64,000 bases of DNA from Octopus sinensis. Lineage: Eukaryota. A program made the translations under genes and the position numbers. The notes beneath the pieces were generated by a model. It ran no database searches and was not told the origin of the DNA. It saw nothing but the letters and a program-made list of their open reading frames with translations. Below are positions 22,280 to 49,760 of the stretch, piece after piece. Numbering within the stretch: position 1 is the first letter of the stretch; the number at the start of each line of letters is the position of its first letter. The stretch spans positions 6,634,001 to 6,698,000 of the forward strand of contig NC_043006.1 of the NCBI RefSeq assembly GCF_006345805.1, written 5' to 3'.

Positions 22280-22481
22280 TTATATAAATTCCTCCATGAG
22301 ATCGGCACCAAAAAATTGTTGGTATGTTAAGATATTTCATCATATGAAACCAATGATAGACTTCATATACAAATAATGAAATTTTAACAAAAATGCGGTA
22401 TTGAGCACGTATTCTCATATATTTGACATTTACGTATACGTGTGTGTAGGTGGGTGCTTTGGTGTGTAATATATATATATA

Positions 22482-22641
22482 TACGGCCATATCACTTTGA
22501 AAACACCGGTTCTCGTCCGATCACCGAAGTTAAGCAAAGTCGAGCCTAGTTAGTACTTAGATGGGTGACCGCTTGGGAAACCTAGGTGCTGTAAACGTCT
22601 TTCTCTCTCTACTCCATTGTCTCCCGAGACAAAAAGGATGC

Positions 22642-33258: not shown

Positions 33259-33611
33259 TAACTAAAAAAATGTATGATAGATTGCAGTCAATTCATTCTC
33301 TCTTACCTGTTTGTGTCTGCCTTCCAATGCTGTTTTTACTGAGATCTCCCTTTTTAGTAGAAGAAATAGCTATAACCCTTTGACTGCTATTTCTAAATTC
33401 GGTATGTGGTAAGGCAACTCGTTGCTAAACCCTTATTGCTTAGTATATATATTATATATTATATATATATATATATTATATAATATATATATATATATAT
33501 AATATATATAAAGCCTTGCTAGGTTTTAAAAGGGAGCATTTATTTTATTTTTATGTATATATATATATATATATCTATATATATATATATATAATAATAA
33601 TATAAAATGAA

Positions 33612-35479: not shown

Positions 35480-35804
35480 AAAGCGAAAAGATTCATAATT
35501 ATGGAGACCTTAGAATTGAGATCGCCAAGATGTGGCAGCTACGATAGTCAAACACAAAATTTGTCCCTGTTGTCATCGGAGTATTGGGTTCTATAACACC
35601 CAAGCGGAAAAAAAAACATCTGGAAAATTTAGAAAAACCCTAGTATCTAGGTATAATGCAAAAATCAGCATCATTTGGAGATGTACGCGCATTGTATAAA
35701 GTATTGTCTATTTGAGGTTCTTGTTGTGACTTCATAGACTGTACAAAGCCCTAGTGGACACAAAATATTTAATATCATGATATTAGATATTGTGTGACGT
35801 CTTA
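35480..35804 (+). mobile_element. Degraded R4/Dong-like LINE 3' end
   Basis: NYGDLRIEIAKMWQLR*SNTKFVPVVIGVLGSI...MQKSASFGDVRALYKVLSI*, followed by (AAT)n. Confidence 0.65.
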
Positions 35805-35820
35805 AATAATAATAATAATA

Positions 35821-35882
<62 letters not shown>

Positions 35883-35889
35883 AATAATA

Positions 35890-37010
<1,121 letters not shown>

Positions 37011-37011
37011 T

Positions 37012-37809
37012 ATATTGCTGTCTGTGGAGTCATATCTTTAGTTAAAGGAATTAGCTGTCTTTGACTGCTATTCTTAAATTTTGGGTATGTGGTGAAGCAA
37101 CTTGTTGCTAAACCTTTAATTATATTTATAATTATAAAAACATTTTGTATAACTTTTTTACCGATTATGGTTTTTTTCCATACCGAAACTACTTGGTAAA
37201 ATTTATTAATTATTAAATTAATAATTCTTTACCCTATATCTGTAATAATTATTTCACTCCCTGATAGCAAACTGCAGTTTTTGTTTTCCTGCGGTACTAT
37301 CTTGTGACGCACATGGTAATCTTGGAGGCAAAATATGAAATTACTCTTCTATATAGGTTTGGAAATGCAGATTACCTTATGCCAAGTTTCGATGTCTCTT
37401 GGTCGAGGATGCAGAAGGTAAGTTTCAAATTTCAAATGTATAATTCGCGAAATATTATGCTGATGAAGGAAAGGAATTTTACAATTCTAATTCCGAAACG
37501 CGTACCTAATTAATCGGGGACTGATTTCGTTATTTATTCTTCTTTTGCGTATGTGAGTTATAAATATTGCTGTCTGTGAAGTCATATTTGTAGTTAAAAG
37601 AATTAAGTGTCTTTGACTGCTATTTCTAAATTTTCGGTATGTGGTGAAGCAACTTGTTGCTAAACTAAACTCATAAATATATTTATAATTATAAGAAAAA
37701 AAACCTTTTTCTATAAGTTTTTACCGATAATGTTTTTTTTCCATACCGACACTACTTGGTAAAATTTATTAATTATTAAATTAACAATTTTTTGCCCTAT
37801 ATCTGTAAT
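37012..37809 (+). mobile_element. Non-coding partial tandem element with hammerhead (retrozyme/PLE pseudo-LTR-like), period 552 bp
   Basis: Direct repeats 37012-37246 and 37564-37809 flank a hammerhead. A ~50-bp block is shared with 33379-33431. Confidence 0.7.
37454..37510 (+). ncRNA. Type I hammerhead motif
   Basis: AUUAUG-CUGAUGA-A-GGAA...GAAUU/AAUUC...UUCC-GAAAC-GC-GUA-CCUAAU. Stem III ACGCGU is palindromic and stem I has one mismatch. Confidence 0.65.
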
Positions 37810-37821
37810 GCGTGAGGAGTG

Positions 37822-37852
<31 letters not shown>

Positions 37853-37923
37853 TCCTCACGCATTACAGATATATTATATAAATATATTTACTTTATTTAA
37901 AGCAGCAGAAAATTCAACAAAAC

Positions 37924-37961
37924 CTGTTACTCTGAGTTTCCCGTTGCCGTTCATCGGACAG
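37924..37961 (-). ncRNA. Minimal type I hammerhead motif, U4C variant
   Basis: Minus strand reads CUGU-CCGAUGA-A-CG GCAA CG-G-GAAAC-UCAGA-GUA-ACAG. Confidence 0.6.
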
Positions 37962-38121
37962 TTTTTGCTATAATGGAACCGATATGTTTCACATTTATGT
38001 GTTTACTCCGGTATATATATATATATATGTATATAGTGTGCATTTTTCTTTTTCTGCTGTATGTTTTTATTACAACTCATAACATGCTGAGGATCTTTTG
38101 AATGACGCGATAGATAGATAG

Positions 38122-49087: not shown

Positions 49088-49760
49088 TATGCGTGCATAT
49101 TTAGACGTGTTCTCTGTTCTTCGATGAATAAAGTTTCTTTATATTTTCTTATATACACCAGTGCAAAGAAATTGTATCTTTGCACTGATAGAAGGGGAAC
49201 ACTGTGAAATTTGGTTTAATGTTACCTGCACATCTCTCTATCTGTTCACTTAAAGGAATGTCTCTGTATTGCGGAAATCGGCTCTGCTCTTTATGTAGAG
49301 TGGTGGTTCTCCGTCTCAATGTCATACTACTCTGTCCTATATAGTGATGTCCACAGCACGAGCAGATTATTACATAAACTAGATTCTCAGAGGCACAAGT
49401 GAAGTTGGTTTTAATTGTGAACTTCTCTCCTTGTTTGAAGAGGAAATCCCAGCCTTCAAGTAGGCTGGGGTGTGTTCCACAGTTTGGGCGACGATAGTTT
49501 TTAACCGTTGGTTTCGTAGTTGCTATGTAAAGCTTCACACTTGTTAGAAGTCTCTTTAGGGATTTGTGTTGCTTTTTGCATTTGATGAATGTATGTGCTT
49601 TCAGGATGTTGTTCATTGTTGGGTCTGTAGTTAGTAAAGGGAGATTTTGCACAATAGTGTTGTACGCCTCATTCTTTCTAGGGTTGTGAGTTGGTATATA
49701 CAGTGGTGTTTTGATATTGTCTTTCATTTAGTGTTTTTCTGAGGTCTAGAAGACGAAGGT
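49088..49760 (-). mobile_element. Penelope-like element, GIY-YIG endonuclease region
   Basis: THNP...FTCASENLVYVIICSCCGHHYIGQS...LRRR. The frameshifted end reads RKYKETLFIEEQRTRLNMHA*. Confidence 0.85.

What the first reader, a model, noticed from the sequence alone, without database searches (positions are those of the whole stretch)
37012..37809. Retrozyme-like 552-bp unit present as about 1.4 tandem copies
Seen: ~235-bp direct repeats 552 bp apart, no credible ORF, and one hammerhead per unit with canonical CUGAUGA/GAAA/GUA. The repeats have visibly diverged, so this copy is old. Established: non-LTR retrozymes are tandem non-coding units processed by hammerheads into circular RNAs. Inference: a greater-than-unit-length, permuted copy is what reverse transcription around a ~550-nt circular RNA would leave.
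Basis: partly seen in the sequence, partly recalled or inferred. Interest (0 to 1): 0.72.

Follow-up and report, generated by a model that had tools for sequence, protein, structure and literature searches.

The report
Non-coding Penelope-type hammerhead retroelement
This is one old, cut-short copy of an abundant non-coding jumping repeat that carries a hammerhead ribozyme motif and ends at one of two fixed points beside TA repeats; it likely borrows the enzymes of Penelope-type retrotransposons and is likely copied from a small RNA circle, which no experiment here has shown.

Summary
The repeats are real (37012-37246 and 37564-37809, 86% alike, period 552), but the insertion holds one minimal hammerhead, not two, so this copy cannot release a unit-length RNA. 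It belongs to a dispersed non-coding family with two sister families (583 and 566 nt; 1,111 exact matches to one 33-mer). Copies are not randomly permuted: 95 of 99 unselected arms end at one of two fixed 3' sites about 90-115 nt apart, mostly at (TA)n. 5' ends are scattered with no pile-up at the ribozyme cut, and 46 of 47 classifiable head-to-head pairs join one long and one short arm. That is Penelope-like (PLE) insertion anatomy with an unusually long tail. Hammerhead stems covary. No protein-coding partner and no array of two full units was found (longest 1.71 units of 48). A circular template is the simplest way to keep such a closed unit going, but a linear over-length transcript is not excluded, and there is no RNA evidence. 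The retrozyme-PLE link is in print, and the scan noted similar PLE stubs in other genomes (91 notes, at least 28 genomes). Verdict: new variant of a known kind, modest interest.

The parts
37012..37810 (+). Whole insertion, 1.43 units of a 552-nt non-coding unit; 5'-truncated, ends at 3' site B
37012..37246 (+). First repeat (pseudo-LTR-like, truncated at its 5' end)
37564..37809 (+). Second repeat, ending at site B
37452..37512 (+). Minimal type I hammerhead motif: stem I 37454-37459 with 37505-37510 (mismatch at 37506), core 37460-37466 and 37495-37498, long stem II, palindromic stem III 37498-37503, predicted cut after 37504
37120..37150 (+). Site A: first fixed 3' end of family copies (inferred reverse-transcription start); read through in this copy; equivalent in the second repeat about 37680-37700
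37137..37252 (+). Tail between sites A and B, about 115 nt (about 90-105 nt in sister families)
37257..37291 (+). Segment just 3' of site B, conserved across three families (63% of columns against 20-29% in the spacer); candidate protein-binding signal (inferred)
37292..37431 (+). Poorly conserved non-coding spacer
37798..37873 (.). Hairpin at the 3' junction: last 12 nt of the element, 12 extra nt, (TA)n, then their reverse complement; seen only in this copy
36730..37011 (-). Left neighbour, not part of the element: 3' fragment of a high-copy LINE ending in (AAT)n (R4/Dong-like by recalled motif)
33331..33437 (+). Second, short family stub in the window, ending at site A before (TA)n

Best explanation
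The stretch is an old, 5'-truncated copy of a dispersed non-coding 552-nt repeat unit with a minimal hammerhead motif and two fixed 3' ends at (TA)n, likely moved by the reverse transcriptase and GIY-YIG endonuclease of a Penelope-like element acting in trans, and likely copied around a hammerhead-cut RNA circle. Steps: (1) shown: closed unit in the order cut site, A, B, conserved post-B segment, spacer, hammerhead; (2) inferred: a master copy with two hammerheads is transcribed, cut hammerhead to hammerhead and ligated; (3) inferred from PLE biochemistry: the PLE protein binds near A/B, nicks both strands of a TA-rich target and starts cDNA inside the RNA at B on one strand and at A on the other; (4) shown: cDNAs stop at scattered points (median arm 190 nt), 28 of 99 pass the cut site and 7 of 99 reach 552 nt or more; this copy ran 1.43 units; (5) shown: the two repeats are now 9% apart and stem I is damaged, so the copy is probably dead. 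I put about 0.9 on the PLE-type, non-autonomous part and about 0.6 on the circle given that.
For: Family: 340 and 2,672 first-look candidates for the middle and the 3' part; 1,111 exact matches to a 33-mer, 0 for the control. Fixed 3' ends: 59 A, 36 B, 4 other of 99 arms from the first 100 listed places; 18 A, 8 B, 4 other of the 30 loci. Head-to-head pairs: 46 A+B, 1 A+A, 0 B+B, 10 unclassified of 57 (P about 2e-14 if independent). These match PLE anatomy (PMC8557442, PMC3846280, passages) and the two internal start sites and two-strand nicking of PAc (PMC11167929, parts 1-2 of 4). Hammerhead: 94.5% of cells paired, four pairs with double changes, slid controls 21-43%; A8 occurs only with U3, 7 of 7, a covariation reported in PMC4209133. 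Closed unit: 14 of 15 post-B motifs run on into hammerhead or repeat anchor, none into a frame over 97 codons. For a single-unit template: repeats within a copy are closer than between copies (9.3 vs 14.0% in F1, 4.5 vs 7.3% in F2) with no separate first-unit and second-unit types; longest copy 1.71 units of 48. Copies with two hammerheads exist (L002, L017).
Against: No autonomous PLE sharing sequence with the unit was found in 70 partly overlapping PLE loci. No RNA evidence for a circle or for cleavage. Only 20 of 56 copies keep a fully canonical core and 13 of 57 carry U4C. In PAc the ribozyme is not needed for insertion and uncut RNA is the main template (PMC11167929); 8 of 9 Xenopus dimers did not cleave in vitro (bioRxiv 2026.07.22.740005). 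The window's own two repeats are no closer to each other than to other copies (18 of 56 others closer), so this copy alone says nothing about the template. Long arrays could be collapsed in the assembly or missed, since only 40 candidates are scored per search. The window copy has no inverted arm. Covarying cells count sequences, not events.
Confidence: 0.55

Rival explanations
1. Same non-autonomous PLE-type family, but copied from linear, uncut transcripts of a master longer than one unit (a 1.5-1.7-unit copy or a hidden array); no circle is involved and the hammerhead only trims transcripts or helps folding.
For: Uncut RNA is the main PAc template and ribozyme mutants still insert (PMC11167929, parts 1-2). 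No 5' pile-up at the cut, so cut linear monomers are not a visible template. All copies seen are at most 1.71 units, which a finite linear master would also give. Many copies have altered cores.
Against: Copies of a linear master can only keep or lose 5' length, and only 7 of 99 arms reach a unit, yet three diverged families keep the closed unit. No array of two units among the 48 longest copies and no first-unit/second-unit types. The segment 3' of site B is conserved; if needed in cis, a master that ends at B could not start there.
Confidence: 0.33
2. The unit is only the end of a protein-coding PLE (Hydra or Neptune type) that was not found; most copies are its truncated stubs, and over-length copies come from an internal deletion in a few masters.
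For: Most arms are short 3' stubs (median 190 nt). Neptune-like and Hydra-like PLEs ending at (TA)n are present in this genome.
Against: None of 15 post-B motifs continues into an ORF; 14 continue round the unit. No similarity between the unit and the ends of the PLE families fetched. All three families are closed non-coding units.
Confidence: 0.09
3. A local tandem duplication of part of an ordinary repeat, with a chance hammerhead-like motif.
For: The window's two repeats are 9% apart and no closer than other copies; Rfam finds no hammerhead.
Against: 13 of 23 F1 and 24 of 25 F2 longest copies exceed one unit by more than 40 nt with the same seamless unit order; motif absent from shuffles; stems covary.
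Confidence: 0.03

Closest known systems
Metazoan non-LTR retrozymes (Cervera and De la Pena 2020, PMC7229834, passages and Discussion read; Li, Clavereau and Pollet 2026, bioRxiv 10.64898/2026.07.22.740005, parts 1-3 of 5 read)
   Same: Non-coding unit with a type I hammerhead, low GC (31%), size within the reported 51-972 bp, proposed PLE-driven mobilisation through circles.
   Different: Minimal rather than canonical hammerhead; no dimers or arrays of full units found (at most 1.71 units); dispersed 5'-truncated copies with two fixed 3' ends and inverted arms; circle and cleavage untested.
Insertion units of endonuclease-bearing Penelope-like elements (Craig et al. 2021, PMC8557442, passages and a supplement search; Arkhipova et al. 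2013, PMC3846280, passages)
   Same: Partial tandem forming pseudo-LTRs, adjacent inverted 5'-truncated copy, tail at only one end, (TA)n targets, hammerhead in the repeat.
   Different: No RT/GIY-YIG ORF; tail about 90-115 nt instead of 30-40; no coding partner identified.
PAc Poseidon element of Anolis (Frangieh et al. 2024, PMC11167929, parts 1-2 of 4 read)
   Same: Two internal start sites that define the tail; both target strands cut and extended; AT-rich target; RNA 3' of the start sites required.
   Different: PAc is autonomous, its sites are adjacent, and its template in vitro is linear uncut RNA.
[quoted passage not shown]
   Same: Long helix II, unpaired base at its 5' end, palindromic minimal helix III predicted to act as a dimer, U3-A8 variant.
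   Different: Here it sits in a stand-alone non-coding unit; stem I is 6 bp in the family.

Membership tests
Non-LTR retrozyme | Type I hammerhead in the unit | tested here: met
   Minimal type I motif with covarying stems; canonical loop 1-loop 2 contacts not evident
Non-LTR retrozyme | Tandem repeats of two or more units, each with a complete hammerhead | tested here: not met
   Window copy: 1.43 units, one motif. Longest of 48 best-scoring long copies 1.71 units; a few copies hold two motifs. Search scores only 40 candidates per query.
Non-LTR retrozyme | Non-coding, a few hundred nt, GC under 45% | tested here: met
   552 nt, GC 31%; frame open in 1 of 17; no Pfam hit
Non-LTR retrozyme | Self-cleavage and accumulation of circular monomer RNA | not testable with these tools
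   Only contigs of runs not on record as RNA were available
Penelope-like element (autonomous) | RT plus GIY-YIG ORF | tested here: not met
   No ORF in the unit or after site B
Non-autonomous PLE derivative | Partial tandem with pseudo-LTRs | tested here: met
Non-autonomous PLE derivative | Adjacent inverted 5'-truncated copy | tested here: met
   57 head-to-head pairs in 87 loci; absent from the window copy itself
Non-autonomous PLE derivative | Two fixed 3' ends, tail on one arm only | tested here: met
   95 of 99 arms; 46 of 47 classifiable pairs; tail longer than the reported 30-40 bp
Non-autonomous PLE derivative | Insertion at AT-rich microsatellites | tested here: met
   Junction listings, read by eye: most ends abut (TA)n
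Non-autonomous PLE derivative | Shared terminal sequence with an autonomous PLE of the same genome | tested here: inconclusive
   None in 70 partly overlapping PLE loci; the genome's PLE families were not sampled in full
Plant LTR retrozyme | Type III hammerhead in each LTR, PBS/PPT, 4-bp TSD, fixed both ends | tested here: not met
   Type I order; repeats lack the motif; 5' ends scattered

The most novel reading that the evidence does not exclude
A retrozyme caught without arrays: three sister non-coding families persist only as RNA circles that a Penelope enzyme enters at two fixed sites about 100 nt apart, one per DNA strand, and reads round for up to 1.7 turns. The genome would then record how PLE machinery copies circular RNA, a step proposed but not shown, with a tail three times the usual length.
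Probability: 0.4. Interest if true: 0.62.

Novelty: new variant of a known kind. Interest (0 to 1): 0.38.

Why it matters
That animal retrozymes ride on Penelope-like elements is already proposed in print from co-occurrence and pLTR similarity. This family adds junction-level support: a purely non-coding unit with the full PLE insertion signature. It also gives a compact test system (about 550-580 nt, two mapped start sites) for whether PLE reverse transcriptase uses a circular template. The single window copy is old and has no evident function.

Tried and rejected
Rfam at gathering and E-value thresholds: no hammerhead; only sub-threshold microRNA-type hits on the 3' hairpin. Local folding of the motif is no better than shuffles (z -0.4 to -0.6). 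Circular monomer folds gave z -4.6, -5.9 and -3.0; two controls gave -0.7 and 0.3 and the third (-4.1) overlaps the element, so I give this little weight. Coding remnant in the 81-codon frame: rejected. Partner search among Neptune-like and Hydra-like PLEs by blastn, tblastx, tblastn and nhmmer: only family copies inserted beside them. RNA: no RNA holder listed; contigs of guessed RNA runs cover mainly 3' parts and cannot show level, strand or a circle. 5' ends at the ribozyme cut: no pile-up, 2 of 99 within 5 nt; an apparent cluster at unit 511 is an alignment edge caused by a small deletion in the window copy. Fold-back hairpin as a family trait: 1 of 44 contexts, this copy. A direct genome-wide count of two-motif copies by spaced pattern could not be run, so arrays were tested only through the longest BLAST matches. 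Five family motifs had 0 hits in the supplement of PMC8557442; I did not check that the file holds all consensus sequences. The look-up of earlier notes by sequence found nothing.

Full report
Observation. The repeats are real: 37012-37246 and 37564-37809 align at 86% over 247 columns, offset 552 nt at the start and 563 nt after an insertion in the second repeat. One hammerhead core lies at 37460-37504; it occurs once in the window and in 0 of 100 shuffles. It is in the part that is not repeated, so the 1.43-unit insertion has a single motif and cannot be cut to unit length. It is a minimal type I motif with a long stem II and a palindromic 2-bp stem III, as described for PLE terminal repeats (PMC4209133, part 1 of 4). 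Rfam does not report it. The 81-codon frame has no Pfam hit and is open and in phase in 1 of 17 anchored copies, with 8 of 25 not anchored.

Family. The genome is 2.7 Gb; I take it to be octopus-like from recall of size and repeat make-up, which I did not test. The middle of the unit has 340 first-look candidates and the 3' part 2,672, a 3' bias typical of truncated retro-copies. Two sister families share the layout: F2, 583 nt, and F3, 566 nt. A 33-mer shared by them has 1,111 exact matches and its control 0.

Ends. I fetched all 100 places listed (87 loci); the anchor lies upstream of both candidate ends, so the sample is unselected for them. Of 99 arms assigned, 59 end at site A, 36 at site B and 4 elsewhere. 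The 30 loci give 18 A, 8 B and 4 interrupted or other. A and B lie about 185 and 300 nt downstream of the predicted cut in the window's family and about 90-115 nt apart; most abut (TA)n. 5' ends are scattered: median arm 190 nt, 28 of 99 pass the cut by more than 10 nt, 7 of 99 reach 552 nt, 2 of 99 lie within 5 nt of the cut. There are 57 head-to-head pairs: 46 A+B, 1 A+A, none B+B, 10 unclassified (P about 2e-14 for 46 of 47 if independent). The window copy ends at B and has no inverted arm.

What this resembles. Partial tandems, an adjacent inverted truncated copy, a tail on only one end and (TA)n targets are the described anatomy of endonuclease-bearing PLEs (PMC8557442, passages; PMC3846280, passages). 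The PAc protein nicks and extends both strands of AT-rich DNA and starts cDNA at two internal RNA sites that define the tail, and it needs RNA 3' of those sites (PMC11167929, parts 1-2 of 4). Sites A and B are therefore inferred start sites, one per strand. The tail here is about three times the reported 30-40 bp.

Ribozyme. Across 41 distinct rows from F1 and F2, 94.5% of cells pair, four of 11 pairs change on both sides, and slid controls give 21-43%. These rows were picked by a core pattern and are related, so they show a kept structure, not independent events. A8 appears only with U3, 7 of 7 among 57. Against activity: 20 of 56 copies have a fully canonical core, 13 of 57 carry U4C, and the window copy breaks the second pair of stem I.

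Non-autonomous. The genome has Neptune-like and Hydra-like PLEs (clade names by recalled motifs) with long ORFs. None of 70 partly overlapping loci shares terminal sequence with the unit. Of 15 exact post-B motifs, 14 run on into the hammerhead or the repeat anchor and none into a frame over 97 codons. The unit is a closed non-coding loop; the partner is unidentified.

Circle or linear template. Among the 48 longest best-scoring copies analysed (50 loci fetched, 2 duplicates dropped) the maximum is 1.67 units in F1 and 1.71 in F2, with no array. Repeats inside a copy are closer than between copies (9.3 vs 14.0%; 4.5 vs 7.3%) and there are no first-unit and second-unit types, so both repeats come from one kind of unit. 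A linear master can only hand on equal or shorter 5' extent, and the segment 3' of B is conserved across families (63% of columns against 20-29% in the spacer), which a master ending at B would lack at its last B. A circle solves both points, and two-hammerhead copies that could release it exist. Against: PAc uses uncut RNA and does not need its ribozyme; arrays may be collapsed or unscored; the window's own repeats are uninformative (9.0% apart, 18 of 56 other pieces closer, 2 shared derived sites); no RNA evidence could be obtained. I put the circle at about 0.6 given the PLE route.

Known or new. Non-LTR retrozymes with circles are described in coral, mussel and axolotl, with PLEs proposed as helpers (PMC7229834, passages and Discussion), and a 2026 preprint calls them non-autonomous PLE sequences (parts 1-3 of 5; supplements not seen). 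This family fails their array criterion and has a minimal ribozyme, so it works like one but I do not file it as a member. Searches for retrozyme with octopus, hammerhead with cephalopod and retrotransposon, and Penelope with twin priming (listings only) showed no description of it; an octopus repeat annotation has no passage on hammerheads or ribozymes (PMC13282606, passages). The scan's earlier notes hold 91 similar findings in at least 28 genomes, several with the long-arm/short-arm rule; I had noted that rule before reading them. One note prompted the Hydra partner test.

Verdict. Real, explained in kind, modestly new in detail: a non-coding PLE-type unit with a long tail, no arrays and a possible circular template. 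Interest 0.38.

Noticed in passing
window 37798-37873: Near-perfect hairpin (z -13) made of the element's last bases, 12 extra nt, (TA)n and their reverse complement; unique to this copy among 44 contexts; possibly fold-back synthesis primed by the self-complementary TA run.
   Followed up: partly
window 35787-36420 (+) and 36730-37011 (-): Two 3' fragments of related LINEs (R4/Dong-like by recalled motif) meet tail to tail at (AAT)n/(ATT)n; C-termini 56% alike over 27 aa.
   Followed up: partly
window 37875-37995: Another high-copy repeat abutting the same TA-rich site, often found as inverted pairs in other loci; may be another PLE-type end.
   Followed up: no
window 49155-49724 (-): Broken GIY-YIG fragment of a Neptune-like PLE of another family.
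   Followed up: partly
window 22479-22597 (+): Lone full-length 5S rRNA match (109 bits) between TA runs, followed by about 55 nt of other sequence; could be a 5S-derived SINE or a retro-copy.
   Followed up: no
L038, L047, L099 (3' of the GIY-YIG stop): An autonomous Neptune-like family carries a minimal hammerhead with the U3-A8 core about 90 nt before its (TA)n end, read by eye.
   Followed up: no
L007, L017, L189, L295, L318: Family members insert next to the TA tails of earlier members, building small clusters of mixed subfamilies.
   Followed up: partly
L196-L225, about 400-450 nt after the ORF end: The Hydra-like family's 3' region has hammerhead-like core pieces that did not fit my type I pattern; earlier notes describe permuted hammerheads in this genome.
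   Followed up: no
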